This document shows positions 1 through 22,876 of a stretch of 64,000 nucleotides of DNA, piece after piece (within the stretch, counting starts at the first letter, position 1; every line of letters begins with the position of its first letter). This DNA is from a virus, in IMG/VR virus record IMGVR_UViG_3300027971_000044, positions 1 through 64,000 of that record; one strand, 5' to 3'. A model generated the notes under the pieces. That model was not told where the DNA came from. It ran no database searches and saw only the letters and a program-made list of their open reading frames with translations. The position numbers and the translations under genes were made by a program.

Positions 1-126
1 TGCCACTACATTAGTGGAAACCTTTTGTAAGTCTGCTACGACTTTATTCATTTCATCTGCGCTATTAGCGGTGAAGTCAACGCCTAGTAATTGTGCGCCG
101 TCCCATAGTGAGTATGTTATTGTCAT
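1..126 (-). CDS. small early hypothetical protein (runs off window start)
   Basis: Read by hand: ATG at 126, MTITYSLWDGAQLLGVDFTANSADEMNKVVADLQKVSTNVVA..., SD AAAGGA upstream, downstream of promoter at 163-184. Confidence 0.7.
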   Translation of the reverse strand, partial: MTITYSLWDGAQLLGVDFTANSADEMNKVVADLQKVSTNVVA

Positions 127-162
127 TTTATTTTCTATCCTTTGTTAGTAGTTATAGTAAGT

Positions 163-184
163 ATTGTAGCCTAGTGGGCTGACA
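163..184 (-). promoter_or_regulatory. promoter TGTCAG-N10-TACAAT (PafBC/RecA-NDp-like)
   Basis: Reverse complement reads TGTCAG CCCACTAGGC TACAAT; same architecture at 615-636. Confidence 0.7.
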
Positions 185-214
185 TTATCAAGACGACACG
201 CCGTAGCGTGTAGC

Positions 215-391
215 CTATGCGGTGTGAGTTACCTCACACACGCACTCTATGCAATAGCAAGCCTTGCTAGAGAGTAGGTCACGCAATAGAGCCTTGCGTG
301 TATAGGCATTTAGTCCATAAGAGGACTTGACCCCACCATTGTGGAAGTCGTGAACGATTGTAGAGTATAACTCTTCTGTAAGGTTAGTCAT
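215..391 (-). CDS. 58 aa Cys-containing hypothetical protein
   Basis: MTNLTEELYSTIVHDFHNGGVKSSYGLNAYTRKALLRDLLSSKACYCIECVCEVTHTA*; TAATG coupling to upstream ORF; below ORF-track cutoff. Confidence 0.6.
   Translation of the reverse strand: MTNLTEELYSTIVHDFHNGGVKSSYGLNAYTRKALLRDLLSSKACYCIECVCEVTHTA
223..238. promoter_or_regulatory. CRP/GlxR-type binding site
   Basis: Perfect TGTGA-GTTACC-TCACA. Confidence 0.6.
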
Positions 392-564
392 TAGTTAGAC
401 CCCTTACCTACTAGGTTATGCTCGGCGTAGTTACCGCCGCACATTGTGCAGAGTGACCAAGCGGTTACTCTACCGCAACCTGCTGAGCAGGCTACATATC
501 CAAGACGCTTAGCGTCACTTTCTACTAGGTAGTCGTTACGACTTTCCCATATTCTGTTAGTCAT
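391..564 (-). CDS. 57 aa Zn-binding hypothetical protein
   Basis: MTNRIWESRNDYLVESDAKRLGYVACSAGCGRVTAWSLCTMCGGNYAEHNLVGKGSN*; CxxxC and CxxC; SD AAAGG upstream. Confidence 0.7.
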   Translation of the reverse strand: MTNRIWESRNDYLVESDAKRLGYVACSAGCGRVTAWSLCTMCGGNYAEHNLVGKGSN

Positions 565-614
565 TTTAGACCTAACCTTTCTTAGTAAGACTTTCTTACT
601 TTCTTTATACTATA

Positions 615-636
615 ATCATAGCAAGGGGGACTGACA
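615..636 (-). promoter_or_regulatory. promoter TGTCAG-N10-TATGAT (PafBC/RecA-NDp-like)
   Basis: Reverse complement reads TGTCAG TCCCCCTTGC TATGAT. Confidence 0.7.
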
Positions 637-674
637 TTTAGGGGGGTTACTCGCTAGTATTCGCAAACTATTTT

Positions 675-690
675 TGTGATAAGGGTCACA
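675..690. promoter_or_regulatory. CRP/GlxR-type binding site
   Basis: Perfect TGTGA-TAAGGG-TCACA, same offset from its promoter as the 223-238 site. Confidence 0.6.
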
Positions 691-808
691 CTCACGCTCA
701 CGGGCATAGGGTAATGGGAGCACTATCGGACAAAACGGACATCTTTAAATGTGTGTATCATACAAATTAAAAATATATTAACATTTTCTCAAAAGTGACT
801 TTGATCTA

Positions 809-838
809 TTGACTTGCGAAAATCCCAAATGGTATACT
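809..838 (+). promoter_or_regulatory. sigma70/SigA-type promoter
   Basis: TTGACT-N18-TATACT with extended -10 TGG. Confidence 0.6.
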
Positions 839-1036
839 TCTCTAGCACAACAGTTTTCGGAGATCGCATCAAGGGTTTAAACTTGTGTAGCAACCATACC
901 AAAGGTAGCTGGCCTGAAAAGGTTCAACCGATGAATCCGCACCAAAAGTCGTAGGATTTCGGGGATATGTATATAATTTCTATATGCATGCCCGTAGGGT
1001 TTTTATAGCAAACCACCAAAGATTAAGGAAAAGCAA

Positions 1037-1249
1037 ATGGCTAAAAGAATAAATTGGGAATATGCAAATATAAGAGATAAAGTGGCGGGAACTCCATTTG
1101 ATAACTCATATGATTGGCGTGAATTAAAGTCATTAAGAGATACTACTTGTGAAGCATGCCAAAGAAGGATTCATAAAGGACAGATGATGAAATGGAATGT
1201 AAATACCAAAACGGTAATGCATTTGGAGAAAGATTGTAAGCTTTGGTAA
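1037..1249 (+). CDS. small Zn-finger-like protein
   Basis: CEAC...H..DC pattern; SD AAGGA. Confidence 0.7.
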   Translation: MAKRINWEYANIRDKVAGTPFDNSYDWRELKSLRDTTCEACQRRIHKGQMMKWNVNTKTVMHLEKDCKLW

Positions 1250-1303
1250 AAAATATTCTATTAACATTTAGTAGAATCTATAAAGCAGTCGACTAGGATA
1301 TAT

Positions 1304-1513
1304 ATGTCAAATGAAAACACATCTTGTTTTACTTACAAGGTAGAAATGATTATTCAGATCTTGGCGGCAGATGAAATTACCGCTAGAGCACAACTGGATG
1401 AAAAAGGCGGATACGTAACATCTAGAGAAGTTACTTTCATGGACTCCATGCAGGTCTATAAAGGAAATAAGCTAAGCAAGAAAAAGAAAGATATTGACCC
1501 TGTAGTCGAATAA
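1304..1513 (+). CDS. hypothetical protein
   Basis: 69 aa ORF with AGGA upstream, collinear with neighbours. Confidence 0.65.
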   Translation: MSNENTSCFTYKVEMIIQILAADEITARAQLDEKGGYVTSREVTFMDSMQVYKGNKLSKKKKDIDPVVE

Positions 1514-1534
1514 AAATTGTTATATAATTAACCT

Positions 1535-1819
1535 ATGTCTCCAGAGAAGATATCGGTTAAGAAACAAAAAGATTATCTGGCACGTTATTTAAAAGACATT
1601 AAAGAAAAGAACCCTTGCATCGATTGCAAAGTATCCTATCCGTATTATATGATGGACTTTGATCATGTTCGTGGAACCAAGCATGCAAATGTGGCGGAAC
1701 TAATCAATACGTTATCTAAGAAACGAATAGATGCAGAAATAGCAAAGTGTGAAGTAGTTTGTTCAAATTGCCATAGAGCAAGAACCTATTTAAGAAAAAA
1801 CGGGAAGAAGGAAGCATAA
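1535..1819 (+). CDS. HNH endonuclease family protein
   Basis: CIDC...MDFDH...CEVVCSNCHRART; TATAAT ends 6 nt before ATG (leaderless). Confidence 0.8.
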   Translation: MSPEKISVKKQKDYLARYLKDIKEKNPCIDCKVSYPYYMMDFDHVRGTKHANVAELINTLSKKRIDAEIAKCEVVCSNCHRARTYLRKNGKKEA

Positions 1820-1929
1820 TGAAATTCTGTACATATTGCGATAAGCTCTCATATACATCCAAAGTAACACTAAATGGATCTAAGATCTATTATTGTGATG
1901 ATCATGCTGATAGAATAGCAGTTGACTAG
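1819..1929 (+). CDS. 36 aa Zn-finger-like peptide
   Basis: MKFCTYCDKLSYTSKVTLNGSKIYYCDDHADRIAVD*; CxxC..CxxH; TAATG coupled to HNH gene. Confidence 0.6.
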   Translation: MKFCTYCDKLSYTSKVTLNGSKIYYCDDHADRIAVD

Positions 1930-1949
1930 GATTATGGTATAATAATATT

Positions 1950-2081
1950 ATGAATAAATGTTCTGCACATACATGCACATTGCCATCATTTGTATTTAGA
2001 AAAGATGATCCATCTATTGGATACTGCATGGCACATGGCATGGAATACGCATATGTTATGAAAGCAAGAGAATCTAAATGA
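1950..2081 (+). CDS. 43 aa Zn-finger-like peptide
   Basis: MNKCSAHTCTLPSFVFRKDDPSIGYCMAHGMEYAYVMKARESK*; TGGTATAAT ends 6 nt upstream (leaderless). Confidence 0.6.
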   Translation: MNKCSAHTCTLPSFVFRKDDPSIGYCMAHGMEYAYVMKARESK

Positions 2082-2245
2082 AGAAGATACAGCGTAAGAC
2101 AAAGTCTTTCTCAGCTTTAATAATGCTAATTGCGACAGCAATCCTGTCAGGTGTAGCTTTGAATAAATTTTTAAATTGGGCGGGACAGCAAGAAGACTTC
2201 TTTGATTTTGATCTAAATGAAGACATAGACAGAGAAAATGTATAA
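2078..2245 (+). CDS. 55 aa single-pass membrane peptide
   Basis: MKKIQRKTKSFSALIMLIATAILSGVALNKFLNW...DFFDFDLNEDIDRENV*; basic N-terminus, hydrophobic helix, acidic tail; ATGA overlap. Confidence 0.6.
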   Translation: MKKIQRKTKSFSALIMLIATAILSGVALNKFLNWAGQQEDFFDFDLNEDIDRENV

Positions 2246-2366
2246 CTCATTACTTGGGTCTATATTAGATCTAATCTACCTTGGCTCATATTACCTATTA
2301 GTTCCATTTGTATCTCTGGTTATATTATCTTCTATGGTTGTATATATAAAAAGCTTTAAACTTTAA
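2238..2366 (+). CDS. 42 aa membrane peptide
   Basis: MYNSLLGSILDLIYLGSYYLLVPFVSLVILSSMVVYIKSFKL*; overlaps previous stop. Confidence 0.45.
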   Translation: MYNSLLGSILDLIYLGSYYLLVPFVSLVILSSMVVYIKSFKL

Positions 2367-2561
2367 TTCTCCCGCCCTTTTCTGGGGTCTTAGTATCGGA
2401 GATACCAATTATGCCCTGTTAGGGCTTTAGAACCCTCATAGAGGGCTTATATGGCATATTCTGAAAATGATCACAGATGCTAAAATGGCTCTTCTATCGA
2501 CGCAGCACTTTTTTCGCACTAATTGCACTATATGTCCGTATTGTCTATATACTATCTATAT

Positions 2562-2599
2562 AAAAGAAAAAATCCCAATCAGAGGCGGATCCGATTGGG
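2562..2599 (-). terminator. intrinsic terminator
   Basis: CCCAATCGG...CTGATTGGG stem followed by ATTTTTTCTTTT on the minus strand. Confidence 0.75.
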
Positions 2600-2657
2600 C
2601 TTTTCTAGTGTATTACTACACATTATATAGGGAGACATTGCTGCCGTCACCTACACA
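2562..2657 (-). ncRNA. candidate ~95 nt structured small RNA
   Basis: Consensus promoter immediately upstream, two GNRA-capped hairpins, intrinsic terminator, no credible ORF. Confidence 0.6.
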
Positions 2658-2662
2658 TCTTA

Positions 2663-2691
2663 ATTGTAATATGGATTATTTTCTATGTCAA
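2663..2691 (-). promoter_or_regulatory. consensus sigma70/SigA promoter
   Basis: TTGACA-N17-TACAAT on the minus strand. Confidence 0.75.
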
Positions 2692-2698
2692 GCATTTA

Positions 2699-2890
2699 CT
2701 ACCATTTTCCAATAGGGCATTTTGCATCTAGTAGTCTTGTTTTCATTTCCATGAAACACCCGCATTTATTGCATTGTTTTGTAAATTGAATTAAATTTTC
2801 GCAAGAAAGACAAGATTGCATTCTTTCTTTTTGTATCTCTTCAGAAGACCTAGGTGCATCTGAATCAAACAAGTCCCAAGGTTTAACCAT
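2699..2890 (-). CDS. Cys-rich small phage protein
   Basis: CLSC...CNKCGCFM..K..L..AKCPIGKW; likely start MVKPW at 2890, overlapping upstream stop. Confidence 0.75.
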   Translation of the reverse strand: MVKPWDLFDSDAPRSSEEIQKERMQSCLSCENLIQFTKQCNKCGCFMEMKTRLLDAKCPIGKW

Positions 2891-3086
2891 TGTTATCTTC
2901 AGGTGGGGTAAATGAAGGAGCAGGCCCAAGAAGAAATCCTTGTTCATGATATTCAATCATTTTTGCCGTCTTCTCAGGATCTGTTTTATTTGCCATAATT
3001 GTTAGCATGTCGTAAATACGGTGAAGCATTATATAGTTCACCATAGGTAGGTTATCTTCTATTGATTGAGATTCTTTATTTTCCAT
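2883..3086 (-). CDS. hypothetical protein
   Basis: Start MENKES at 3086 by TAATG coupling; MLHRIYD...LGPAP core. Confidence 0.7.
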   Translation of the reverse strand: MENKESQSIEDNLPMVNYIMLHRIYDMLTIMANKTDPEKTAKMIEYHEQGFLLGPAPSFTPPEDNNG

Positions 3087-3289
3087 TATGGCCTCCCCAT
3101 ATCTTCCCAAAATATTTCACGCCCCATAGCGTCTTTCTCAGATAGGGCATTTCCTTCAAACTCATAATTAAAAGGGTTCTCTTCTTGCGGCGCACTTATT
3201 TTTGCACTATTTTGCGGAATCACTTTAACATGAAAGAAGTTTTCTTCTTGCTCACAGGTGCATTGCCCGTTTTTACATTCATCTAACAT
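3086..3289 (-). CDS. hypothetical protein
   Basis: 67 aa ORF that tiles exactly between neighbours. Confidence 0.5.
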   Translation of the reverse strand: MLDECKNGQCTCEQEENFFHVKVIPQNSAKISAPQEENPFNYEFEGNALSEKDAMGREIFWEDMGRP

Positions 3290-3488
3290 TGTCCACCGCT
3301 TTCATAATATCATCGTAATCTTTTGTTCCAAGGACTTTTTTATAGTGGCAAGATAGGCAATAAACAAATACCCGATCCTCACCGTCCTGGTTAGGGAAAA
3401 GAGGACCTTGATCCATTGGACATTCAAGTCTAGGAACAAGGCCCTCTTCTGATAAGGCTATGTACTTAGATACGTATTGTATCTGCAT
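3279..3488 (-). CDS. Zn-ribbon protein
   Basis: CPMD...CLSC; SD GGAAG. Confidence 0.75.
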   Translation of the reverse strand: MQIQYVSKYIALSEEGLVPRLECPMDQGPLFPNQDGEDRVFVYCLSCHYKKVLGTKDYDDIMKAVDNVR

Positions 3489-3494
3489 TACTTC

Positions 3495-4046
3495 CTACTT
3501 CTTTGCATCAGTTGGGAATTGCAAAAGCCATTCCTTAGCCTTCGGGGTCATACCCTTCCAGCTTGACCAATCTGAGCCGCCTTCGGTCATGTAGTACGTT
3601 ATCTCTGCGTTAGTTACTGGGTCGAATAACTCTTTGTTACTCTTTAGGTCGAATTTCTCTAGTCTTTTTGGACCGAGATCTCCAATCATGTTTATCTGGA
3701 ATATTCCATAGGAACTATCTCCAGTTTTCTTATCCCCGTTATATGCAAGCGGTCTTCCATTAGATTCACGCTTTGCTATTGACCAAGCTTTCTTAAGGCC
3801 TGATCCTTCGAATCCTACAGTCTTGAGTAGTAAAACTAGTTCTTCGTCTGTAAGCATCTCAGATGGCTTGTAAATCTCTTTACTAAAACTATCTAAGACT
3901 TCTTGCTTTAGTTGGGCTTCAGTTTTCACTAAAGGTTGTACTGTTAAGGCATTTGCTGGCTGTACAGGAAACAAAAATAATGTTATCATTACTATTGTAA
4001 CTATATTGTGAGCCAGATCACTCACCTGTTGTTTTATTTTCTCCAT
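3495..4046 (-). CDS. lytic transglycosylase (SLT domain) with N-terminal signal/TM segment
   Basis: IAKRES (catalytic Glu), SYGIFQIN, LFDPVTNA, GGSDWSSW; SD GAGGAGG supports start at 4046 rather than 4133. Confidence 0.85.
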   Translation of the reverse strand: MEKIKQQVSDLAHNIVTIVMITLFLFPVQPANALTVQPLVKTEAQLKQEVLDSFSKEIYKPSEMLTDEELVLLLKTVGFEGSGLKKAWSIAKRESNGRPLAYNGDKKTGDSSYGIFQINMIGDLGPKRLEKFDLKSNKELFDPVTNAEITYYMTEGGSDWSSWKGMTPKAKEWLLQFPTDAKK

Positions 4047-4079
4047 TGGCATTTCCTCCTCTAGAGATAACGAACTACA

Positions 4080-4109
4080 ATCATAACATTGATGGGATAA
4101 GCCTGTCAA
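4080..4109 (-). promoter_or_regulatory. promoter of the SLT operon
   Basis: TTGACA-N18-TATGAT with extended -10 TG on the minus strand. Confidence 0.65.
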
Positions 4110-4131
4110 GCCAGTCAACCAGAAAGAAAAC

Positions 4132-5136
4132 ATGAATATATCTTATTATACTATTCAGTCGGGGCTTAATCCCGCAGTTGGCTATGGCTATGCAGGAAAG
4201 AATATAGTTAAATCTTTAAATAAACTTGGGCATAATATAACATTTGCTGATCCTAAAGCTGATATTCAATTAAGCTTTACTCAGCCACAACATTTTAAGC
4301 TACATAGAAAACAATATCAGATTTCATATACTCCGTGGGAATCTACAGAGATGAAGCCAGAGTGGGTTGAAAGATTTAATGCGTGTGATGAAGTCTGGAC
4401 AACATCTGACTGGTGTGCTAAAGTATTTAAAGACAATGGAATAACTAAACCAATATATGTTTATCCACATGGGATTGAAAGCATCTGGGTACCTAAAAAA
4501 AGATTTGTTCAAAAAGGAACACCCTTAAAGTTTTTACATATTGGAGAGCCTTCTCCAAGAAAAGACGGGCAACTAGTAGTAAATACATTCATAAAACTAT
4601 TTGGCAATAATCCAGACTATCACTTAACAATTAAAGCTCATAAGTTTAGTACTATTAGAGTATATGATAATGAAGATAGCATTATTGGTCTTCCCCACGA
4701 ACTTTATAGTAATATAGATATGATTACAGATGAGATTAACGAAGAGCATCTTGTAAAGCTTTATCACGATCATCATGTTTTAGTTTATCCTACATGGGGA
4801 GAAGGTTTTGGCTTTATTCCTTTACAAGGATTAGCAACTGGTATGCCAGTAATATCAACATATGATTGGTCTCACTATATGGACTACATGGGACCACTTA
4901 AGTTAAAGTCTAAACTTACAAATGAGACTATGCCAAACTTTATATCAGATGGACATATAGGAAAAATGTTTAAACCAGATGCAAAACATTTAGAAGAGTT
5001 GATGTTAGAAGTTTCAAGTAACTATAATGCTTACTCTGGATATTATTTTGCTCAGTCAACCGAAATACATGAAAAGTATAATTGGGATCAGTTGACCAAG
5101 AAAGCATTTGAACATTTAGTAGAAAAATTTAATTAG
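4132..5136 (+). CDS. GT-B fold glycosyltransferase (GT4 family)
   Basis: GYG motif, PHGI, PRKD, EGFGFIPLQGLATGMPVI. Confidence 0.85.
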   Translation: MNISYYTIQSGLNPAVGYGYAGKNIVKSLNKLGHNITFADPKADIQLSFTQPQHFKLHRKQYQISYTPWESTEMKPEWVERFNACDEVWTTSDWCAKVFKDNGITKPIYVYPHGIESIWVPKKRFVQKGTPLKFLHIGEPSPRKDGQLVVNTFIKLFGNNPDYHLTIKAHKFSTIRVYDNEDSIIGLPHELYSNIDMITDEINEEHLVKLYHDHHVLVYPTWGEGFGFIPLQGLATGMPVISTYDWSHYMDYMGPLKLKSKLTNETMPNFISDGHIGKMFKPDAKHLEELMLEVSSNYNAYSGYYFAQSTEIHEKYNWDQLTKKAFEHLVEKFN

Positions 5137-5225
5137 CCCTTCCCCTTTTAATCATTCTTTGGTAGAATAGGATCTTCACACTAAATTTAAATTAACCGCT
5201 AGGCGGAGAAAAAAGGTATTATAAA

Positions 5226-7160
5226 ATGTCTAAGACTATTGCAAACCCATACGAAAATTTTATTGCGTTATCAAGATATGCAAGATGGATATCAGAAGAT
5301 AATCGCCGTGAGACATGGGGTGAGACAGTAGATAGATATTTTGACTTCATGTTAAACCATCTAAAACAGAATTACAACTATATTCCAAATGAAAAGCTTG
5401 TAGCGGAATTAAAAGACGGTGTATTTCAGAGAAACGTCATGCCTTCTATGCGTTCTGTGATGACTTCAGGAGCAGCACTAGAAAGAGATAATGTTGCAGG
5501 ATATAACTGTGCATTTCTTCCAGTTGACTCTGCACGTTCATTTGATGAAACCATGTATATACTTATGTGCGGTACAGGAGTAGGATTCTCTGTTGAGTAT
5601 AAATATATTAATAAGCTTCCTGCCGTTCCAGAATCATTGGAGAAGTCAACTACTGTAATTACAGTAGAAGATTCAAAGCAAGGCTGGGCAAAAGCATACC
5701 GTGAGTTGCTTGCACTACTCTGGTCAGGACAGATTCCAGCAATCGATGTTTCTAAGGTGCGTCCCGCAGGCGCAAGACTTAAGACAATGGGTGGAAGATC
5801 ATCTGGACCACAACCACTTATTAATTTATTTGATTTTACAATTGCAAAGTTTAAAGGCGCTACAGGAAGAAACCTTAAGCCAATTGAATGCCACGATATA
5901 ATGTGCAAGATTGGTGAAGTAGTTGTTGTAGGCGGAGTTCGCCGATCAGCAATGATTTCCCTTTCTAACATTAACGATATCGAGATGGCACAGGCTAAGT
6001 CAGGCAACTGGTGGGAAGCCAATACACAACGTGCTTTATCTAATAACTCTGTTGCGTACTCACGCAAGCCAGACATGGAGCAATTTATTGCAGAATGGAA
6101 ATCTCTATATGATTCAAAGTCAGGAGAACGAGGTATATACAATGTGGCCGCAGCTCAAGCCCAAGCAGCCAAGTATGGAAGAAGAGATCCAGATATACAC
6201 TATGGAACTAACCCGTGCTCAGAGATTATTTTACGTCCTTATCAGTTTTGTAACCTTTCAGAAGTCGTACTACGTGAGAATGATACAAAGAAAGAAATTG
6301 AACGCAAGGTTGAACTTGCAACTATTCTTGGAACGTGGCAGTCAACGCTTACAGACTTTAAATATCTTCGCAAGATCTGGAAAGACAATACAGAAGAAGA
6401 GCGCCTGCTAGGTGTTTCTTTAACTGGACAATTTGGACACAAGTTTATGTCAGGTAAAGAAGACCTTGTTTCACTAGAAGATTTCTTGATGACTCTTAGA
6501 GAATTAGCAAGAGCAAAGAATAAAGATGAGGCTGGGAAAATTGGGATTCCTGAGTCTGCCGCTATTACATGTGTAAAGCCATCAGGAACAGTATCTCAAT
6601 TGGTCGGGGTATCTTCAGGAATGCATGCTTGGCATTCTCCATATTACATTCGTACAGTACGTGGGGCAAAGGGAGATCCAATCTCTACATTTTTGAAGGA
6701 AGTCGGAATTCCTGTAGAAGATGATGTTATGAAGCCAAACGATACATACGTATTCTCATTTCCAATTAAGGCACCAGAGGGTGCAATTGTTAGAAATGAT
6801 TTAACTGCTATTGAACACCTAAACATTTGGTTGGTTTACCAACGTGCATGGTGTGAGCACAAACCATCTATTACCGTTTCTGTAAAAGAGGATGAATGGA
6901 TGGAAGTTGGTGCTTGGGTATATAAGCATTTTGATGAGGTTTCTGGAATTTCATTCCTGCCGCATTCAGACCACTCATATAAGCAGGCTCCTTACCAAGA
7001 AGTAGATAAGGCAGAATATGACGCTCTTGTTGAAAAGATGCCAAAGGATATCCGATGGGAAGATTTATCTTTTTATGAGACAGAAGATGGCACTTCTACC
7101 AATGCCACGCTTGCCTGCAGCTCAGATGGAAATTGTGAGCTTGTGGATATTTCTGCTTAG
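5226..7160 (+). CDS. nrdJ: class II adenosylcobalamin-dependent ribonucleotide reductase
   Basis: RRETWGETVDR, GYNC, GTGVGFS, GTNPCSEI, FCNLSEV, TCVKPSGT, C-terminal CSSDGNCE pair; no nrdB nearby. Confidence 0.93.
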   Translation: MSKTIANPYENFIALSRYARWISEDNRRETWGETVDRYFDFMLNHLKQNYNYIPNEKLVAELKDGVFQRNVMPSMRSVMTSGAALERDNVAGYNCAFLPVDSARSFDETMYILMCGTGVGFSVEYKYINKLPAVPESLEKSTTVITVEDSKQGWAKAYRELLALLWSGQIPAIDVSKVRPAGARLKTMGGRSSGPQPLINLFDFTIAKFKGATGRNLKPIECHDIMCKIGEVVVVGGVRRSAMISLSNINDIEMAQAKSGNWWEANTQRALSNNSVAYSRKPDMEQFIAEWKSLYDSKSGERGIYNVAAAQAQAAKYGRRDPDIHYGTNPCSEIILRPYQFCNLSEVVLRENDTKKEIERKVELATILGTWQSTLTDFKYLRKIWKDNTEEERLLGVSLTGQFGHKFMSGKEDLVSLEDFLMTLRELARAKNKDEAGKIGIPESAAITCVKPSGTVSQLVGVSSGMHAWHSPYYIRTVRGAKGDPISTFLKEVGIPVEDDVMKPNDTYVFSFPIKAPEGAIVRNDLTAIEHLNIWLVYQRAWCEHKPSITVSVKEDEWMEVGAWVYKHFDEVSGISFLPHSDHSYKQAPYQEVDKAEYDALVEKMPKDIRWEDLSFYETEDGTSTNATLACSSDGNCELVDISA

Positions 7161-13256: not shown

Positions 13257-13600
13257 TGGCAACAGAAGTATTTAAGATACTAGGGCAGGTAGCACCAGGA
13301 ACAACTAATACAGCATTGTATACCGTTCCAACAGGTAAGTCTGCAGTCATATCAACTATTGCTGTATGTAATCAAACATCTGGTGATGTAACATTTAGAA
13401 TTGCTACACAAAAAGCAGCAGATGCCTCAACAAATACAATTTTAGCTAAACAATATATTGCGTATGGTTCAACAGTAGCTGCCAACGACACAACATTTGT
13501 CACTATCGGAGCTACGCTTGCAGCGGGAGATCAAATAATCGTTTACGGTTCATCTTCTAGCATCTCATTTAACGCATATGGCTCCGAGGTGACACCTTAA
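13256..13600 (+). CDS. small virion protein
   Basis: LYTVP..KSAVISTIAVCN...GATLAAGDQI...AYGSE pattern; TAATG coupled on both sides. Confidence 0.7.
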   Translation: MATEVFKILGQVAPGTTNTALYTVPTGKSAVISTIAVCNQTSGDVTFRIATQKAADASTNTILAKQYIAYGSTVAANDTTFVTIGATLAAGDQIIVYGSSSSISFNAYGSEVTP

Positions 13601-15399
13601 TGGCGATAAGTAAATTAAATCCTTCAGCAGGTGGCATTCCTTTTGGAAATACAGCGGGACGCCCTACAGCAGCAACAGGTAAACTTTATTCAAATGGCGA
13701 AACTGCTAGACTAGAATTATATACCGCCACAGGGTGGCAAAACATTGTTCAAGAAGTTCCAGGCGTAGCCTCAATTACGGGAAATTATTCAGAAGCAACA
13801 AATTCTGGAACAATTACAATTCAAGGCACTAACTTTGTTTCAGGAGCAATTGCATCAGCAATTGGATCCAATGGAGTAGAAGTTCTAGCATCATCAACAA
13901 CTTATAATTCACTAGTACAATTAACAGCAGTGTTTACAGGATTGTCAAATGCCAATGAGCCTTATGACATTAAGGTAACAAATCCTTCAAACCTATTTGG
14001 AATGATTCCAGATGCACTTTATGTTAACGCTTCTCCAGTATGGACAACCACGGCTGGAACATTGGGAACATTCGGAGACAGCGTAGCAATATCTGTTTCA
14101 GCAACGGCCACAGATTCTGACTCAACAATAACTTACTCATTAGCATCAGGCTCAACTTTGCCTTCAGGTATAAATTTAAATTCTTCAACTGGTGCAATCT
14201 CAGGAACTCTTCCAGATATTGCTTCTAATACAACATATACTTTTACAATTAATGCATCAGATGAGGTGAATCCTGTAGTGCCAAGAACATTTAGTTTTGT
14301 TTCTAATGCAGCCCCAATTTGGTCTACATCAAGTGGATCATTAGGAACATTTAATAAATATACAAGTATTAGTCTAACAGTTGCCGCAGCAGATGTTTCA
14401 GATTCAATTACCTACGCATTAGCAAGCGGATCAACACTACCAACTGGAGTTACACTAAACTCTTCAACTGGAGTTATTTCAGGAATACTTCCAAATATTG
14501 CGTCAAACACAACCTATACCTTTACAATAAATGCAACAGATGGAGTTAATACAGTACCAAGAGCATTTAGTATTACATCTGAGCCAAGCATTACTTTTGA
14601 GTATCTTCTTGCAGGCGGAGGCGGAGGAGGCGGAGGAGGATATCAAGGAGGCGGAGGCGGAGCAGGGGGACTACTATACGGAACTTTATCTAAATCAGCT
14701 GGGACGTATAATATTAGTATAGGATCATCTGGTGTTGGTGCAGCTAGTGGCACTGAAGGAACAAGTGGAGGAAATACATCAGCATTTGATCTTATTGCAT
14801 ATGGTGGCGGAAAGGGCGCTGGCGAAATGCAATCAATGAGTCTTAGTGGTAGTGTTTATGCATTAGGCGGAGGCTCAGCAGGAGGAAGAGGGCACCCAAC
14901 TTATCAATTAGCATCTGCAACCTCGGCAGTTTCTGGTCAAGGAAACATAGGAGGATCTTATACAAATTGTTGTGTCATGGGCGGTGGCGGCGGCGCAGGC
15001 TCAGCAGGTGCAGACGCAACCCTTTCTCCAGAAAAAGGTGGTAATGGTGGATCTGGAATTTCATCTTCAATAACAGGAACATCACAATTTTATTCAGGCG
15101 GTGGCGGAGGTGCATCTAGATCTGGAGGAGCTGGAGGAACAGGAGGATCTGGTGTTGGAGGTAATGGAGGAGCTAACGGTAATGGATCTAGTGCTTCTTC
15201 ATACGGATCAGGCGGTGGCGGAGGCGGTTCATCAGGTGGAGTAAGTAATGGTGGAAGTGGTTCTTCTGGTGTTTTAATTATAGCTTACCCATCAACTATT
15301 CCAGCTTTAACAATTTCAGGTTTAACATACGATCAACCAACACGTTCTGGATATAGAGTTTATCGGTTTACAGCGGGAACAGGAACGGTAACATTATAA
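13600..15399 (+). CDS. glycine-rich adhesin-like virion protein 1 (Ig/He_PIG repeats + Gly-rich domain)
   Basis: Two cadherin/He_PIG-like repeats, EYLLAGGGGGGG ... GSSGVLIIAYP. Confidence 0.8.
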   Translation: MAISKLNPSAGGIPFGNTAGRPTAATGKLYSNGETARLELYTATGWQNIVQEVPGVASITGNYSEATNSGTITIQGTNFVSGAIASAIGSNGVEVLASSTTYNSLVQLTAVFTGLSNANEPYDIKVTNPSNLFGMIPDALYVNASPVWTTTAGTLGTFGDSVAISVSATATDSDSTITYSLASGSTLPSGINLNSSTGAISGTLPDIASNTTYTFTINASDEVNPVVPRTFSFVSNAAPIWSTSSGSLGTFNKYTSISLTVAAADVSDSITYALASGSTLPTGVTLNSSTGVISGILPNIASNTTYTFTINATDGVNTVPRAFSITSEPSITFEYLLAGGGGGGGGGYQGGGGGAGGLLYGTLSKSAGTYNISIGSSGVGAASGTEGTSGGNTSAFDLIAYGGGKGAGEMQSMSLSGSVYALGGGSAGGRGHPTYQLASATSAVSGQGNIGGSYTNCCVMGGGGGAGSAGADATLSPEKGGNGGSGISSSITGTSQFYSGGGGGASRSGGAGGTGGSGVGGNGGANGNGSSASSYGSGGGGGGSSGGVSNGGSGSSGVLIIAYPSTIPALTISGLTYDQPTRSGYRVYRFTAGTGTVTL

Positions 15400-15803
15400 T
15401 GGCTAAAACAGTTAAAATTTGGAACGGAACAGATTGGGTAGATCTTGGAGTAAAAGCTGCTCTTCCTCCTGATTATATAGATACTACTGCTCTTAATTCC
15501 GCCCTTGCTTCATATAAGCAAGAAGTAAATCTTACAGTATCATCTAACATAACATTAGTGGCGGGACGCAGATATTTTGTTGATACAACAGCTGCTAGAA
15601 CATTAACACTTCCTGCAAGTCCAACACTTGGACAAGAAATTGTAGTTGTAGATGCATCTGGAACAGCTGGAACATATAACATTACAATTAATTCAAACAG
15701 TGGTAAAATTAACGGAACGATTCAAAACCTTACAATTGACGTAGATGGAGCAGGCGCTTCATTAATCTATACAGGTTCGACATATGGCTGGAGGGTAGGA
15801 TAA
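15399..15803 (+). CDS. adaptor-like protein with T4 gp9/gp10-like module
   Basis: YFVDT.AARTLTLPASPTLG...DASG...NITI...YTGSTYGW. Confidence 0.7.
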   Translation: MAKTVKIWNGTDWVDLGVKAALPPDYIDTTALNSALASYKQEVNLTVSSNITLVAGRRYFVDTTAARTLTLPASPTLGQEIVVVDASGTAGTYNITINSNSGKINGTIQNLTIDVDGAGASLIYTGSTYGWRVG

Positions 15804-18439
15804 TGGCAATTAGTTTTTCTAGTTTATCTGGCGGTACATCATTTACAGTAGTAACATCTACAGGCGGATCTAAGACAGCTACTCTTGATAAGTCATATCC
15901 AGCAGGAACATATTTAATTGAGTCTAAAGCATTAGATACAAACCTAGAAGTATATCTAGGAGCATCAGATGGCACCCCCGTAGGATCGACGGTGGCAGGA
16001 GCAAAAACAGTTACAGCTACATCATCCTTCCTATATGTAACAACAGTAAATGCAGATGCCAATGATGCAGTTATATTTACATTAAAGTCGGCGTCAACAT
16101 TATCAACTAAAACAGATGCAACATGGGCTCCTCCAACAATTACAGATATTACTCCAAGCGGGCTACCAAATATTAATAACACAACAACTATTACAGGTAC
16201 AAACTTTGCTTCAAACGTAGAGGTTAAATTTAGAAAATCAGATGATTCAACATTAGTAACTCCTAAGACAACAGTTAGAGGATCTGCAACATCTATTATT
16301 GCAGGCCGTCCTGACTCATTTGCAGTCGGAGATGCTCCATATGACGTAATTGTCACAAATCCAACCACAACATTATCTGCATCATCTCTTAATGCAATTA
16401 CTGCAGGAGCTGTGCCAGTTTGGGTTACATCAACAACATTAAATACAGCTACATTAACAACAGCATTTTCACAAACAATTTCTGCAACAGATGCTGATGG
16501 CGGATCATCAATTACATATGCAATTGTATCAGGAGCATTTCAAACAGGATTATCTTTAAATACATCAACAGGTGCAATTACTGGAACACCAACAGGATCT
16601 GCAGGAAGCACATCAGTTGTAATATCTGCAACAGACTCTGGCGGTAACGCAGTAAATAGAACATTTACACAGGTTGTTATAGAACCTAATATCACAGTTA
16701 ACTACCTTGTAGTTGCAGGTGGCGGAGGTGGCGGTAAGCTTGGCGGAGGTGGAGGAGCTGGTGGTTTTAGAACCTCAACAGCGTCACTTCCTACAAATAC
16801 TTCATACAGAATTATTGTTGGCTCTGGCGGCCTTGGAACTCTTAACGAAATGAATCGTGGTTTAAATGGTACAAGTTCATCTATTTCTGGATCAGGATTT
16901 ACAACATTTTCTGCAACTGGCGGTGGCGGTGGAGGTTCCGACAATGCTAGTCAAAGCCAAGATTATGGGCAAGATGGTGGTTCAGGTGGTGGAGATGGTA
17001 ACACCAACGGTAATACCCTTGGTTATGGTGCTGGAAACCTTGGCGGATACTCTCCAGTAGAAGGTTACCGTGGCGGTGGCTCAGGAAATAGTACAAACTA
17101 TGCTTCTGGTGGTGGCGGTGGTGGTGCTGGTGGAGTAGGTGGAGATGGTAGTTATATTGGAACAGGCGATGGTGATGGCGGAGCTGGTGGAATAGGTGCT
17201 ACATCATCAATAACTGGTACATCTACATACTACGCAGGTGGCGGTGGTGGTGGAGCCCGCAAAGATAATAGTTCTACAAATCGTACTGGCGGAGCTGCTG
17301 GTAATGGTGGTGGTGGTAGGGGTAGCGATTCAGTTACTAATAATGCAACTGCTGGAACTGCAAACACAGGTGGCGGTGGTGGTGCTGGTGGTTATGGTAA
17401 CTCTCCTTCTACTTATAAATCCGCAAAAAATGGCGGTTCTGGTATTGTAATTTTTAGTTATGCAGGTTCACAAAAAGCCACAGGTGGAATAGTTACAACA
17501 TCAGGTGGAAATACAATTCACACTTTTAATGCTAGTGGTAATTTTGAAACTTCATATTCTGTTGCAGCTAAAGCAACTGGTGGTGCAATAAATACAGACG
17601 GAAGTTATTTTTATCATGTATTTAATGATTCAGGAACATTTACTCCTACTCAATCTTTAACTGCTGACATTTTAGTTGTTGCAGGTGGCGGTGGAGCCAG
17701 TATGGGAACAGGTGCTGGTGGCGGTGGAGCAGGTGGTTTTAGAGCTATAACATCTCGTGCCGTAACATCAGGAACTGCATACACAGTTACCGTTGGTAGT
17801 GGCGGTGCTCCTGCTGCTCCTGACACTGTTCGTAGTGAAAGCGGAAATAACTCATCTTTTTCTGGAACAGGATTTGCAACAATTACCGCTACTGGCGGTG
17901 GCGCAGGTGCTGCTGAAAGTTCAACCACTCCTGCTTCTGGTGGTTCTGGAGGCGGTGGTATGTATAGCACATCTGGAGCATCAGGAAACTCTGGTGGTTA
18001 TACCCCTGTCGAAGGTTATGCAGGTGGTAGTGGCATAGGTGCAGCTTCTGGTTTTTATGGCGGAGGCGGAGGCGGTGGAGCAAGTTCTGTAGGTGGAAAT
18101 GCTGCTAGTCTAAATGGTGGTGCAGGTGGTGCTGGTGCAACTACTCCAATATCTGGTGGTGCAACTACTGGTGCTGGTCAATTAGTAAACGGAAATTATT
18201 ATTTTGCTGGCGGCGGAGGTGGTGGTACACAATTTACCGTTTCAAATACTACCGCTGGTGTTGGTGGTAATGGTGGAGGTGGAGCAGGATCAGCAGATAA
18301 CACAGGTGGTTCATCTCGTTTGGCACCTGGAATTTCTGGAACTCCAAATACAGGCGGAGGCGGTGGCGGAGCTGGTGGCGATAATTCACTAGGAGGAGCT
18401 GGCGGCTCAGGAATAGTAATTATTCGTTACGCAGTATAA
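15803..18439 (+). CDS. glycine-rich adhesin-like virion protein 2 (IPT + He_PIG + two Gly-rich domains)
   Basis: YLVVAGGGGGG and ILVVAGGGGA domains, each ending GGSGIVI. Confidence 0.8.
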   Translation: MAISFSSLSGGTSFTVVTSTGGSKTATLDKSYPAGTYLIESKALDTNLEVYLGASDGTPVGSTVAGAKTVTATSSFLYVTTVNADANDAVIFTLKSASTLSTKTDATWAPPTITDITPSGLPNINNTTTITGTNFASNVEVKFRKSDDSTLVTPKTTVRGSATSIIAGRPDSFAVGDAPYDVIVTNPTTTLSASSLNAITAGAVPVWVTSTTLNTATLTTAFSQTISATDADGGSSITYAIVSGAFQTGLSLNTSTGAITGTPTGSAGSTSVVISATDSGGNAVNRTFTQVVIEPNITVNYLVVAGGGGGGKLGGGGGAGGFRTSTASLPTNTSYRIIVGSGGLGTLNEMNRGLNGTSSSISGSGFTTFSATGGGGGGSDNASQSQDYGQDGGSGGGDGNTNGNTLGYGAGNLGGYSPVEGYRGGGSGNSTNYASGGGGGGAGGVGGDGSYIGTGDGDGGAGGIGATSSITGTSTYYAGGGGGGARKDNSSTNRTGGAAGNGGGGRGSDSVTNNATAGTANTGGGGGAGGYGNSPSTYKSAKNGGSGIVIFSYAGSQKATGGIVTTSGGNTIHTFNASGNFETSYSVAAKATGGAINTDGSYFYHVFNDSGTFTPTQSLTADILVVAGGGGASMGTGAGGGGAGGFRAITSRAVTSGTAYTVTVGSGGAPAAPDTVRSESGNNSSFSGTGFATITATGGGAGAAESSTTPASGGSGGGGMYSTSGASGNSGGYTPVEGYAGGSGIGAASGFYGGGGGGGASSVGGNAASLNGGAGGAGATTPISGGATTGAGQLVNGNYYFAGGGGGGTQFTVSNTTAGVGGNGGGGAGSADNTGGSSRLAPGISGTPNTGGGGGGAGGDNSLGGAGGSGIVIIRYAV

Positions 18440-18444
18440 AACAA

Positions 18445-18473
18445 TAGACTTATCATTTAATAAATGGTAAAAT
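18445..18473 (+). promoter_or_regulatory. internal promoter
   Basis: TAGACT-N17-TAAAAT with TGG extension. Confidence 0.55.
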
Positions 18474-18508
18474 ATAAATAAGTAAGACAACTAACAAAGG
18501 AGAAAAAA

Positions 18509-18892: not shown

Positions 18893-18898
18893 TTTAAA

Positions 18899-22823: not shown

Positions 22824-22876
22824 ATAATTCAATGCTATAATTAAGTAATAAACAACTAGGGGAAATGTGAACTTAG

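What the first reader, a model, noticed from the sequence alone, without database searches (positions are those of the whole stretch)
163..690. Two identically built early promoters: perfect CRP box + PafBC/RecA-NDp-type element
Seen: both minus-strand early units are preceded by TGTCAG-N10-TANNAT (163-184, 615-636). Each also has a perfect TGTGA-N6-TCACA with exactly 38 nt between it and the TGTCAG (223-238, 675-690), while the intervening DNA is unrelated. Established: TGTC(G/A)G-N10-TA-N3-T is the actinobacterial RecA-independent DNA-damage promoter activated by the WYL regulator PafBC, and TGTGA-N6-TCACA is the CRP/GlxR site. Inference: the phage may wire its early genes to host DNA-damage sensing and cAMP/carbon status together, or drive them with its own WYL/PafBC-like activator.
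Basis: partly seen in the sequence, partly recalled or inferred. Interest (0 to 1): 0.82.

Follow-up and report, generated by a model that had tools for sequence, protein, structure and literature searches.

The report
Phage promoters copying host PafBC promoters
The two look-alike control regions are real promoters of a type shared by hundreds of uncultured lake phages of actinobacteria: they copy the promoter the host uses for its DNA-damage alarm and add a docking site for a cAMP-receptor-type regulator whole DNA turns upstream, but no binding has been tested.

Summary
Observation confirmed. TGTCAG-N10-TANNAT (163-184, 615-636, minus strand) and TGTGA-N6-TCACA (223-238, 675-690) each occur only twice in the 81.5-kb record, always paired 38 nt apart.

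The window starts at a contig end, so it keeps only the first two promoters of a longer block. Five complete 105-115 kb relatives carry 6-14 strict cores and 6-8 boxes. These lie almost entirely on one strand, inside a 10-14 kb block of small genes. An IMG/VR scan returned at least 120 low-GC contigs with the composite. Box-to-core gaps peak at 18/28/38/48/59/70 nt, which is whole helical turns.

All five relatives encode WhiB, so the host is actinobacterial. None of the six phage genomes encodes a WYL, Crp or sigma-r2 protein. Small low-GC actinobacterial genomes have the same TGTCAGTGG...TGCTAC promoter before recA. They also encode PafB/PafC and one Mtb-like Crp.

Best reading (about 0.5): host sigmaA promoters read through host PafBC at -26 and boosted by host Crp. 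A phage-encoded reader is not excluded. This scan has already reported the same promoter class in at least 19 other genomes.

The parts
675..690 (.). CRP-type palindrome, box B (TGTGATAAGGGTCACA). Its centre is at about -74.5 of promoter P_B.
   Evidence: One of only 2 perfect boxes in the 81.5-kb record.
631..636 (-). The -26-type element TGTCAG of P_B, preceded by AAA.
   Evidence: The class logo is WWW-TGTCAG.
615..623 (-). Extended -10 of P_B (TGC-TATGAT).
   Evidence: TG at -15/-14 occurs in 59% of 512 class members.
391..564 (-). orfC, 57 aa, four Cys (zinc-ribbon-like). It is the first gene driven by P_B.
   Evidence: No Pfam or PHROG family. Homologues in 9 related loci. An RNA-library contig is identical over 402-576.
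215..391 (-). orfB, 58 aa, with start/stop overlap to orfC. Its last codons contain box A.
   Evidence: Homologues in 30 tblastn hits. In relatives it is the first gene of the block, with its own box and core.
223..238 (.). CRP-type palindrome, box A (TGTGAGTTACCTCACA). Its centre is at about -74.5 of P_A. As RNA it also forms a 12-pair hairpin.
   Evidence: The identical box occurs at the orthologous place in G003 and G004.
186..191 (-). The -35-like hexamer TTGATA, 17 nt before the -10 of P_A and abutting the TGTCAG.
   Evidence: Conserved in several orthologues. Only 30% of class members have such a hexamer.
179..184 (-). The -26-type element TGTCAG of P_A.
163..168 (-). The -10 hexamer TACAAT of P_A.
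1..126 (-). orfA (MTITYSLWDGAQLLG...), cut off by the contig end. It is the gene driven by P_A.
   Evidence: It is 50 aa in G003. Homologues in 59 tblastn hits. An RNA-library contig is identical over 1-124.

Best explanation
P_A (163-238) and P_B (615-690) are the first two members of a clade-wide class of phage promoters. The rest of the block is cut off by the contig end.

Each promoter is a sigmaA-type -10 (TAyAAT, usually with an extended TG) plus a nearly invariant TGTCAG at about -28 to -23. As a class it has no conserved -35. About half of the members also carry a TGTGA-N6-TCACA palindrome placed whole helical turns upstream, with its centre near -54.5, -64.5, -74.5, -84.5 or -95.5. 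Both window copies are at -74.5.

Most likely mechanism, inferred and not shown:
- The host housekeeping RNA polymerase starts here only, or mainly, when host PafBC sits on the TGTCAG between the DNA and sigma region 4. PafBC is the ssDNA-activated WYL heterodimer, and this mode of action is called 'sigma adaptation'.
- A host Crp/GlxR dimer on the palindrome, on the same face of the helix, helps recruit the polymerase in the manner of class I activation.
- The phage thus starts its block of tiny genes of unknown function, presumed host-takeover genes, with two host regulators and no adaptor of its own.

Shown: the motifs, their geometry, their repetition, strand coherence and phasing, the actinobacterial affiliation, the absence of recognisable WYL, Crp or sigma genes in the phage, and the presence of matching promoters and regulators in candidate host-type genomes.

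Inferred: who binds, activation rather than repression, the timing, and the signals sensed.
For: 1. Real and repeated. I estimated about 4 expected by chance from pattern content; this was not computed by a tool. In those 120 loci (1.1 Mb, GC 0.31-0.42) there are 554 strict cores, 538 of them on the majority strand of their locus, against 3 for the reversed pattern.

2. Complete relatives. G001-G005 carry 14, 13, 11, 9 and 6 cores, one-stranded except 1 in G005, with controls of 0-1. They carry 7, 8, 8, 6 and 6 boxes, with control 0. All lie in one 10-14 kb block. In G003, 17 relaxed cores lie within 11.3 kb, each 48-62 nt before the ATG of a small ORF, and 8 of 8 boxes are followed by a core 28-48 nt away. 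The window's orfB and orfA are the first genes of that block.

3. TGTCAG is a read element. Of 224 TAnAAT hexamers on the sense strand of six block stretches, 45 have TGTCAG exactly 10 nt upstream and only 3 have a one-mismatch variant. Orthologous promoters show TGTCGG, TGTCCG and TGTCTT but keep GTC. GTC is the triplet PafB reads through R46 and R50 (PMC8635444, passages).

4. Geometry equals the PafBC motif. Positions the search did not fix also agree: W before TGTC, and TG after TGTCAG in 196 of 512 cores.

5. Phasing.
- After clustering 211 composites into 77 families, the gaps are 18 (3), 27-29 (20), 37-39 (26), 47-50 (13), 59-60 (3) and 70 (1). That is 66 of 77 in phase.
- One-mismatch boxes, which were not selected for, peak at the same gaps and are nearly absent between them.
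- The orthologous orfA promoter has gap 38 in the window, G004, L091 and L053, but 28 in G003, L023, L102 and others. That is an exact 10-bp indel.

6. Host side.
- WhiB is over the cut-off in 5 of 5 complete relatives. The portal protein is 59.6% identical to those of Streptomyces phages.
- In small (0.9-1.7 Mb), 46-52% GC actinobacterial genomes, recA is preceded by TTGTCAGTGGCGCCTGCTACCTT-type promoters. This was seen in 6 of 7 loci, and for the seventh.
- High-GC relatives mostly have TGTCGG instead (4 of 6).
- Phage-like flavours after TGTCAG (TGG, TGC, TCC, CCC, ACC) occur in 19 of 41 chromosomal hits.
- Such promoters also precede a DUF6504 + PHP/DNA_pol3_alpha operon and a LysM protein.
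- A PafB-like protein was found in 18 of 21 of these genomes, or 17 of 20 without the unpublished G027. It matches 7p5x_AY at E 3.9e-39 with both reading arginines kept. Its neighbour is HTH_PafC + WYL.
- A Crp-family gene was found in 21 of 21 genomes, or 20 of 20 without G027. The G016 Crp matches 3d0s at E 4.8e-77 with the recognition helix SRETVNKALADFA unchanged.

7. No phage reader recognised: WYL in 0 of 6, HTH_Crp_2 over the cut-off in 0 of 6, Sigma70_r2 in 0 of 6.
Against: - No binding, TSS or expression-dependence data exist. The metatranscriptome material is contigs only.
- The host is not identified. The 'host-type' genomes were reached through a phage-like 12-kb contig binned into one MAG, and binning of phage contigs is unreliable. 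Nine multi-core stretches sit in MAGs of several phyla.
- Genome-wide, the core pattern is only weakly enriched in host-type genomes: 41 chromosomal hits against 28 for the control in 5 genomes.
- Six of six host-type genomes contain no perfect TGTGA-N6-TCACA at all. Use of this exact site by the host Crp is therefore inferred only from helix identity with solved relatives.
- The phage -10 is near consensus, and 59% of cores have an extended TG. In addition, 30% have a -35-like hexamer at the canonical place, against 6-9% at most shifted positions (the shift-20 control also reached 28%, which I attribute to overlap with the box). P_A is one of them, with TTGATA. Such promoters may therefore fire with sigmaA alone, unlike mycobacterial PafBC promoters.
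- PafBC needs ssDNA to be active (PMC11804915, abstract in the listing). That is an awkward requirement for the very first genes of an infection.
- The box centres (-54.5, -64.5, -74.5 and so on, with an assumed TSS) are about 3 bp off the E. coli class I positions, which I recall rather than looked up.
- Seven of 77 families have a half-turn gap of 33-34 nt.
- Three Streptomyces phages of the nearest cultured family have 0, 0 and 1 cores, against controls of 2, 1 and 2.
- A small HTH ORF with sub-threshold similarity to sigma region 4 is present in 5 of 6 phage genomes. The phage WhiB is another possible phage-encoded reader.
Confidence: 0.5

Rival explanations
1. Same promoters, but the readers are phage proteins. 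A phage-encoded or virion-delivered adaptor recognises TGTCAG, as T4 MotA/AsiA do for the box near -30, and/or a phage dimeric HTH protein binds the palindrome. On this reading the block is a middle class rather than an immediate-early class, and its likeness to host recA promoters is convergence or mimicry without PafBC.
For: - TGTCAG is far more invariant in the phage (45 exact against 3 one-mismatch) than the lower-case positions of the mycobacterial consensus.
- The motif is clade-specific and absent from 3 related Streptomyces phages.
- The composite was not found on clearly chromosomal contigs.
- Host-type genomes hold no perfect box.
- All 5 complete relatives encode WhiB. From recall, this family binds sigmaA region 4.
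- 5 of 6 genomes encode a small sub-threshold r4-like HTH ORF.
- Most of the block's ORFs have no known family.
Against: - No WYL, Crp-HTH or sigma r2 domain in 6 phage genomes.
- The phage WhiB and the small HTH gene lie outside the block, and in G003 on the other strand.
- The element matches the host-type recA promoter beyond the hexamer: TGTCAGTGG...TGCTAC, and both the TGG and NCC flavours.
- The box is exactly the consensus of a regulator that every host-type genome has.
Confidence: 0.27
2. SigmaA alone drives these promoters through the strong, often extended, -10. TGTCAG and the palindrome are then operators for negative control or for titration. They could serve shut-off of the block later in infection, or act as a sponge that draws PafBC and Crp away from host promoters.
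For: - Near-consensus -10, TG extension in 59% of cores and -35-like hexamers in 30%.
- P_A is a 10-of-12 sigma-70-type match.
- There are 10-17 TGTCAG sites and 6-8 perfect boxes per genome, many more perfect boxes than in a whole host-type genome, which has 0.
Against: - Boxes lie 18-70 nt upstream of the core at whole-turn distances and never overlap it. From recall, that is the pattern of upstream activators rather than of simple repressors.
- 70% of cores lack a usable -35.
- The fixed 10-nt distance from TGTCAG to the -10 is the one needed for sigma adaptation.
Confidence: 0.15
3. The palindromes act as RNA hairpins (3'-end stabilisers or terminators of the upstream unit) and not as protein sites, or the whole pattern is chance.
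For: - Box A with its flanks folds into a 12-pair hairpin with a GUAA loop: -22.6 kcal/mol, z -2.8.
- It lies at the 3' end of orfB.
Against: - The arms are conserved as sequence (TGTGA and TCACA) with a variable 6-nt centre, and they do not co-vary.
- Box B heads the block with no upstream unit on that strand, and its own stem has only 5 pairs.
- No U tract follows either box.
- The boxes are phased to the downstream core.
- Chance is excluded.
Confidence: 0.03

Closest known systems
PafBC-dependent (RecA-NDp, recA P1-type) promoters of Mycobacterium and other Actinobacteria, read by 'sigma adaptation' (PMC8635444, PMC5656591)
   Same: A 22-nt bipartite unit, tGTCgg-N10-tAnnnT, with the 5' part at -28 to -23 and a sigmaA -10. 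GTC is the conserved core and there is no class-wide -35. Host-type genomes use the same TGTCAG(TGG/CCC) form before recA and a dnaE2-like operon.
   Different: Here the unit is on a phage, with 10-17 copies in tandem on one strand. A at position 5 is nearly invariant. The -10 is near consensus and often TG-extended, and 30% also have a -35-like hexamer. About half are coupled to a phased CRP-type box. PafBC dependence is untested.
Class I CRP-dependent promoters (E. coli lac type) and actinobacterial Crp/GlxR sites
   Same: A perfect TGTGA-N6-TCACA palindrome upstream of the core, allowed only at about 10.4-bp steps, that is, on one face of the helix. Host-type genomes carry one Crp with the recognition helix of the solved mycobacterial-type Crp.
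   Different: With an assumed TSS the centres are at -54.5, -64.5, -74.5, -84.5 and -95.5. The recalled E. coli positions are -61.5, -71.5, -82.5 and -92.5. The partner core is a -26-type promoter and not a -35/-10 one. The cAMP dependence and the contact partner (alpha-CTD or PafBC) are unknown. A minority class has a half-turn gap of 33-34 nt.
Phage T4 middle promoters (MotA box near -30 plus sigma70 -10; sigma appropriation by AsiA/MotA), cited as the related case in PMC8635444
   Same: Phage promoters made of a host -10 plus a non-35 element near -26 to -30 that is read through a protein placed at sigma region 4.
   Different: T4 encodes its own adaptor proteins. Here no adaptor gene is recognisable, and the element is identical to a host regulon's motif.
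Multi-promoter host-takeover blocks of large lytic phages (SPO1 terminal redundancy, T5 pre-early and early regions; recalled, not looked up)
   Same: About a dozen or more closely spaced, co-directional promoters in front of very small genes of unknown function at one end of the genome.
   Different: Those promoters are plain strong sigma-A/sigma-70 promoters. These have a -26 element and a phased palindrome.

Membership tests
PafBC-dependent (RecA-NDp) promoter | Bipartite motif tGTCgg-N10-tA-N3-T with a conserved GTC | tested here: met
   Both window copies match. 512 class members were aligned. Orthologues vary at positions 5-6 but keep GTC. The motif definition comes from PMC8635444 and PMC5656591.
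PafBC-dependent (RecA-NDp) promoter | 5' element at -28 to -23 of a mapped transcription start | not testable with these tools
   Only Logan contigs of RNA libraries were available. The positions assume a TSS 7 nt after the -10. Leaderless host-type examples with an ATG 6 nt after the -10 fit that assumption.
PafBC-dependent (RecA-NDp) promoter | No -35 element | tested here: inconclusive
   No -35 appears in the class logo. However, 30% of 512 cores have a hexamer within 2 mismatches of TTGACA at a 16-18 nt spacer, against 6-9% at most shifted positions. P_A has TTGATA.
PafBC-dependent (RecA-NDp) promoter | Host encodes PafB/PafC with the DNA-reading arginines | tested here: inconclusive
   Met for candidate host-type genomes: a PafB-like protein in 18 of 21, R43/R47 aligned to R46/R50, and a neighbour with HTH_PafC + WYL. 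The true host is unknown.
PafBC-dependent (RecA-NDp) promoter | Transcription depends on PafBC (plus ssDNA) | not testable with these tools
   This needs in vitro transcription or reporter assays.
Class I CRP/GlxR-activated promoter | TGTGA-N6-TCACA site | tested here: met
   Perfect at 223-238 and 675-690. There are 6-8 per complete relative, with control 0.
Class I CRP/GlxR-activated promoter | Site upstream of the core on one helical face (steps of about 10-11 bp) | tested here: met
   66 of 77 families have in-phase gaps. Unselected one-mismatch boxes give the same peaks. Orthologues differ by a 10-bp indel. The absolute positions differ by about 3 bp from the recalled E. coli values.
Class I CRP/GlxR-activated promoter | Bound and activated by a Crp-family protein, modulated by cAMP | not testable with these tools
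   Only indirect evidence exists. There is one Crp gene in 21 of 21 host-type genomes, with its helix identical to the solved relative 3d0s. Against this, there are 0 perfect boxes in 6 host-type genomes.
   PF13280 was found in 0 of 1 (own record, 75% complete) and 0 of 5 relatives that are 96-100% complete. The search control found it in 9 of 14 known genomes.
Actinophage (actinobacterial host) | WhiB-like gene, which PMC10202952 calls exclusive to Actinobacteriota and an indicator of actinophages (text read) | tested here: met
   Over the cut-off in 5 of 5 complete relatives. The window's own 75% fragment has only a sub-threshold match.

The most novel reading that the evidence does not exclude
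A whole clade of abundant lake phages has no transcription adaptor of its own. Instead it ignites its block of about 10-17 small-gene promoters with the host's own alarm system. PafBC, switched on by the single-stranded DNA that infection or phage replication creates, would adapt sigmaA to the phage's TGTCAG promoters, and the host's single Crp would set the gain from phased upstream sites. The same array of perfect sites, multiplied by replication, would at the same time draw PafBC and Crp away from the host's DNA-damage and metabolic promoters. This would be the first viral use of sigma adaptation, and a case of a host damage or defence sensor turned into the phage's start signal.
Probability: 0.35. 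Interest if true: 0.8.

Novelty: new variant of a known kind. Interest (0 to 1): 0.6.

Why it matters
PafBC-type 'sigma adaptation' promoters are so far described for chromosomal DNA-damage genes of actinobacteria. My searches found no paper on phage promoters of this type (1 unrelated hit; none of the 15 listed of 24; none of 9 listed). The subscription literature and paper supplements were not searchable.

If the reading holds, some of the most abundant freshwater phages depend on two host regulators for their first genes. That would link infection success to host DNA damage and to nutritional (cAMP) state. It would also give a simple sequence signature: a one-stranded array of WWWTGTCAG-N10-TAyAAT with phased TGTGA-N6-TCACA. 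That signature marks actinobacterial hosts and early blocks in metagenomic phage contigs.

It is directly testable. A purified mycobacterial RNAP/PafBC/ssDNA transcription system already exists (PMC8635444), and 'Ca. Nanopelagicales' can now be cultured and infected (PMC10202952).

Tried and rejected
- Nearest DNA relatives: megablast of window 1-6000 against cultured phages found nothing.
- Chromosomal copies of the composite: one scan of 185,579 species genomes gave 21 stretches. Nine of them are multi-core, 34-41% GC fragments in MAGs of several phyla and look like binned phage pieces. The other 12 are single hits of the number I would expect by chance. So no host chromosome with the composite was found.
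- Shared trait with Streptomyces Stanwilliamsviridae phages: rejected. Cores numbered 0, 0 and 1 against controls of 2, 1 and 2.
- Phage sigma factor: no r2 domain. The r4 search gave only sub-threshold small ORFs.
- DnaA boxes, a lead from earlier notes: none within 1-1100 of this window. Window-wide there were 13 matches with up to 1 mismatch, against 20.8 expected.
- An alternative reading of P_B as ATGTCA(-35)-N17-TATAGT: rejected as a class feature, because the logo shows no conserved hexamer at that place.
- TSS from public RNA: 24 lake or freshwater metatranscriptome runs hold parts of window 1-3000, with a word share of at most 0.24. Four were laid.
  - All are contigs, so no starts can be read.
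  - Contigs identical to 1-124 (X1) and 402-576 (X2) show only that these genes occur in RNA libraries, which can also contain DNA.
  - Contig ends at 576, 580 and 598 lie downstream of the predicted start near 608, but not at one place. One X4 contig runs across P_B. I draw no conclusion from this.
- Function of the driven genes: no family for orfA, orfB or orfC. The larger genes of the block in G003 hit only DUF932, DUF1281_C and PHROGs of unknown function.
- The gap classes 33-34 (7 families) and 40-43 remain unexplained.
- Not run: structure prediction, complex prediction, the protein-atlas search and the large protein searches. No claim here needs them.
- Supplements of the PafBC papers (regulon and motif tables) were closed. 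They could refine the comparison of flanking positions.
Full report
**What is in the window.**

Read on the minus strand, window 1-720 holds two tandem units.

Unit B runs as follows:
- box TGTGACCCTTATCACA (690-675);
- 38 nt of spacer;
- AAA-TGTCAG (636-631);
- 10 nt ending in TGC;
- TATGAT (620-615);
- about 50 nt;
- the ATG of orfC (564), which overlaps orfB (start at 391).

Unit A runs as follows:
- box TGTGAGGTAACTCACA (238-223), lying inside the last codons of orfB;
- 38 nt of spacer;
- TTGATA-A-TGTCAG (191-179);
- 10 nt;
- TACAAT (168-163);
- 36 nt;
- the ATG of orfA (126), which runs off the contig end.

Each motif occurs only twice in the window, with chance means of 0.19 and 0.08. 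Each also occurs only twice in the whole 81,486-bp record. Outside the motifs the two regions are unrelated, with 57 of 150 positions identical in register.

**What the record is.**

The window is the first 64 kb of a linear IMG/VR virus record that is about 75% complete. Its GC is 35-50% in 2-kb windows and mostly 36-42%.

It has the genes of a large siphovirus: portal, protease, tape measure, a class of fibre paralogues, ribonucleotide reductase and a DnaB-like helicase. No cultured phage is close at the DNA level. The portal is at best 59.6% identical to those of 121-134 kb Streptomyces phages of the family Stanwilliamsviridae.

The finding lies at the very left end of the contig. The transcription units point off that end, so most of the block they belong to is missing from this record.

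**The same composite elsewhere.**

I scanned IMG/VR for the box, a 28-48 nt gap, and the core.

All 120 have low GC, 0.31-0.42 with a median of 0.376. They hold 554 strict cores, 538 of them on the majority strand of their locus. The reversed pattern gives 3.

Five relatives that are 96-100% complete and 105-115 kb long were searched whole.
- Cores number 14, 13, 11, 9 and 6. All are on one strand except one in G005, with controls of 0-1.
- Boxes number 7, 8, 8, 6 and 6, with control 0.
- Both kinds are confined to one 10-14 kb block.

With the -10 relaxed to TANNNT, G003 has 17 cores in 11.3 kb and G002 has 16 in 11.1 kb. In G003 each of the cores I checked lies 48-62 nt before the ATG of a small ORF, and each of G003's 8 boxes is followed by a core 28-48 nt downstream.

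The first two genes of the G003 block are homologues of the window's orfB and orfA, and the box before orfA is identical to box A. The window therefore keeps promoters 1 and 2 of a block of about 15-17 promoters.

**Anatomy of the class.**

From 512 non-identical cores the logo is WWW-TGTCAG-(T/A/C)(G/C)(G/C)-N4-TG-N-TA(y)AAT.
- G or C is essentially never found just before TGTCAG.
- G is never found just after it.
- Two flavours follow the hexamer: TGG or TGC (196 of 512), and ACC, TCC or CCC (222 of 512).
- TG at -15/-14 occurs in 59%.
- The next ATG lies mostly 25-36 nt after the -10, behind an A-rich leader.

There is no class-wide -35. Even so, 30% of cores have a hexamer within two mismatches of TTGACA at a 16-18 nt spacer, against 6-9% at most shifted positions (the shift-20 control reached 28%, which I attribute to overlap with the box). 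P_A is one of these, with TTGATA.

TGTCAG itself is close to invariant. Of 224 TAnAAT hexamers on the sense strand of six block stretches, 45 have it at the fixed distance and only 3 have a one-letter variant. In orthologous promoters the variants seen are TGTCGG, TGTCCG and TGTCTT, so GTC stays.

**Phasing of the box.**

Among 520 unique cores, 278 have a perfect box nearby. The gaps fall almost only at 18, 27-29, 33-34, 37-40, 47-50, 59-60 and 70 nt.

To remove copies of the same promoter, I clustered 211 distinct composites at 60% identity. This gave 77 families, of which 66 have gaps within one base of 18, 28, 38, 48-49, 59-60 or 70, a period of about 10.4 bp. Seven have 33-34 and four have other values.

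Boxes with one mismatch were not part of the scan criterion. They show the same peaks and almost nothing between them. In total, 263 of 498 cores have a box with at most one mismatch at a phased gap.

The clearest single case is the window's own P_A. Its orthologues have the same box and the same core, but a spacer of either 38 nt (window, G004, L091, L053) or 28 nt (G003, L023, L102 and others). That is an exact 10-bp indel.

With a start 7 nt after the -10, both window boxes are centred at -74.5.

**Comparison with PafBC promoters.**

The PafBC consensus from ChIP-seq is tGTCgg(N10)tA(N3)T. Its 5' part lies at -23 to -28 and there is no -35. PafB reads the GTC through R46 and R50, and PafBC sits between the DNA and sigmaA domain 4 (PMC8635444, passages). 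The older RecA-NDp consensus is tTGTCRgtg-8nt-TannnT (PMC5656591, passage).

The phage unit has the same letters at the same distances. It matches further at positions that my pattern left free: W before TGTC, and TG after the hexamer in 38% of cores.

**Is the host an actinobacterium with these factors?**

All five complete relatives encode WhiB over the Pfam cut-off. The window's own fragment has only a sub-threshold match. WhiB is described as exclusive to Actinobacteriota and as a marker of actinophages (PMC10202952, text read).

One stretch from the genome scan is a 12-kb phage-like contig with 9 cores, binned in a 1.7-Mb Actinomycetes MAG, G006. Binning is weak evidence for a host, so I used this MAG and its 20 nearest genomes only as 'host-type' examples. 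Thirteen of the 21 are 0.9-1.7 Mb.

In these genomes:
- **recA promoter.** recA is preceded by TGTCAG-N10-TAnnnT in all seven low-GC cases: 6 of 7 and the seventh. In most of them the form is TTGTCAGTGGCGCCTGCTACCTT. That is the phage flavour, including the TG before the -10. High-GC relatives have TGTCGG in 4 of 6, TGTCAG in 1 and no hit in 1.
- **Genome-wide counts.** The pattern is only weakly enriched, with 41 chromosomal hits against 28 controls in five genomes. But 19 of the 41 carry the five phage flavours after TGTCAG.
- **Downstream genes.** I fetched eleven such sites, chosen for those flavours. They precede a DUF6504 gene followed by a PHP/DNA_pol3_alpha (DnaE2-like) gene, a LysM protein, TPR proteins and others. 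Five are leaderless, with the ATG 6 nt after the -10.
- **PafB and PafC.** A PafB-like protein is found in 18 of 21 genomes, or 17 of 20 without the unpublished G027, and in 10 of the 13 small ones. The G006 protein matches chain 7p5x_AY at E 3.9e-39, with arginines aligned to R46 and R50. The gene after it is HTH_PafC + WYL.
- **Crp.** A Crp-family gene is found in 21 of 21 genomes, or 20 of 20 without G027, and usually there is just one. The 227-aa protein of G016 matches 3d0s at E 4.8e-77, with the helix SRETVNKALADFA unchanged.

**Results against the host-factor reading.**
- The six host-type genomes I checked contain no perfect TGTGA-N6-TCACA.
- The composite was not found on a clearly chromosomal contig.
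- Three Streptomyces phages of the nearest cultured family lack the core.
- The phage -10 is strong enough that sigmaA alone might use it.
- PafBC needs ssDNA for activity (abstract of PMC11804915 in the listing). That raises a timing problem for first genes.
- The host itself is unknown.

**Phage-encoded readers.**

No WYL domain, no Crp-type HTH over the cut-off and no sigma region 2 were found in the window's record or in the five relatives.

Two candidates remain. One is the phage WhiB. The other is a 49-66 aa ORF with sub-threshold likeness to sigma region 4, present in 5 of 6 genomes; in this record it lies at 74086-74178, outside the window. The genes of the block are almost all without a known family.

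**RNA.**

Lake and freshwater metatranscriptome runs hold parts of the region. Contigs of two runs are identical to 1-124 and 402-576. These are contigs from libraries that may contain DNA, so they show neither starts nor strand.

**Verdict.**

The two units are genuine promoters of a conserved class that spans the phage clade. Their core is built like the host's PafBC-dependent recA-type promoter, and their upstream palindrome is a helically phased Crp-type site.

I put about 0.5 on host PafBC plus host Crp as the readers. I put about 0.27 on phage-encoded readers, about 0.15 on sigmaA-alone promoters whose extra sites serve repression or titration, and very little on RNA hairpins or chance.

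This scan has already reported the same promoter class in at least 19 other genomes. Those are unchecked AI notes. I reached my reading before opening them, and I count them as agreement, not as evidence.

Noticed in passing
window 809-838 (+): A sigma-70-type promoter, TTGACT-18-TATACT, with a TG extension. It points away from the finding towards the plus-strand small genes that start at 1037. The 470-nt gap 565-1036 is therefore a divergent control region with two different promoter types.
   Followed up: partly
window 205-260 (-): Box A with its flanks folds as RNA into a 12-pair hairpin with a GUAA loop (-22.6 kcal/mol, z -2.8). It lies at the 3' end of orfB, so it could double as a 3'-end structure of the upstream message.
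   Followed up: partly
window 192-199 (-), and related loci: A second GTC-containing word (GCGTGTCG) lies about 13 nt upstream of the TGTCAG of P_A and of its orthologues. Other promoters of the block carry AATGTCCGA or CGACACGCC words in the spacer, and some relatives have a DnaA-box nonamer in place of the left box half. These may be further protein sites.
   Followed up: no
own record 74086-74178 (+), outside the window: A 66-aa ORF with sub-threshold likeness to sigma-70 region 4 (18.6 bits). Small counterparts exist in 4 of 5 complete relatives. It is a possible small phage DNA-binding protein.
   Followed up: no
G001-G005 (e.g. G003:46376-46549): A WhiB-like gene is present in all five complete relatives but not in the window's 75% fragment. 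It presumably lies in the missing quarter.
   Followed up: partly
host-type genomes G010, G014, G016, G018, G019, G020: No perfect TGTGA-N6-TCACA in any of six 1.1-1.4 Mb genomes. I would expect roughly one per genome by chance (my estimate); the reversed-pattern controls gave 0-1. Each phage relative holds 6-8.
   Followed up: partly
L177, L178, L182, L184, L185 (host-type genomes): Five of eleven chromosomal TGTCAG promoters have the ATG 6 nt after the -10, which means leaderless messages. One promoter drives a DUF6504 gene followed by a DnaE2-like polymerase gene.
   Followed up: partly
IMG/VR loci, gap classes 33-34: Seven of 77 promoter families place the box half a turn out of phase, at 33-34 nt. 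This is unexplained.
   Followed up: no
window 13600-30159: Six large paralogues all hit PHROG 2295, of unknown function. Earlier notes of this scan describe them as a fibre-gene array.
   Followed up: no
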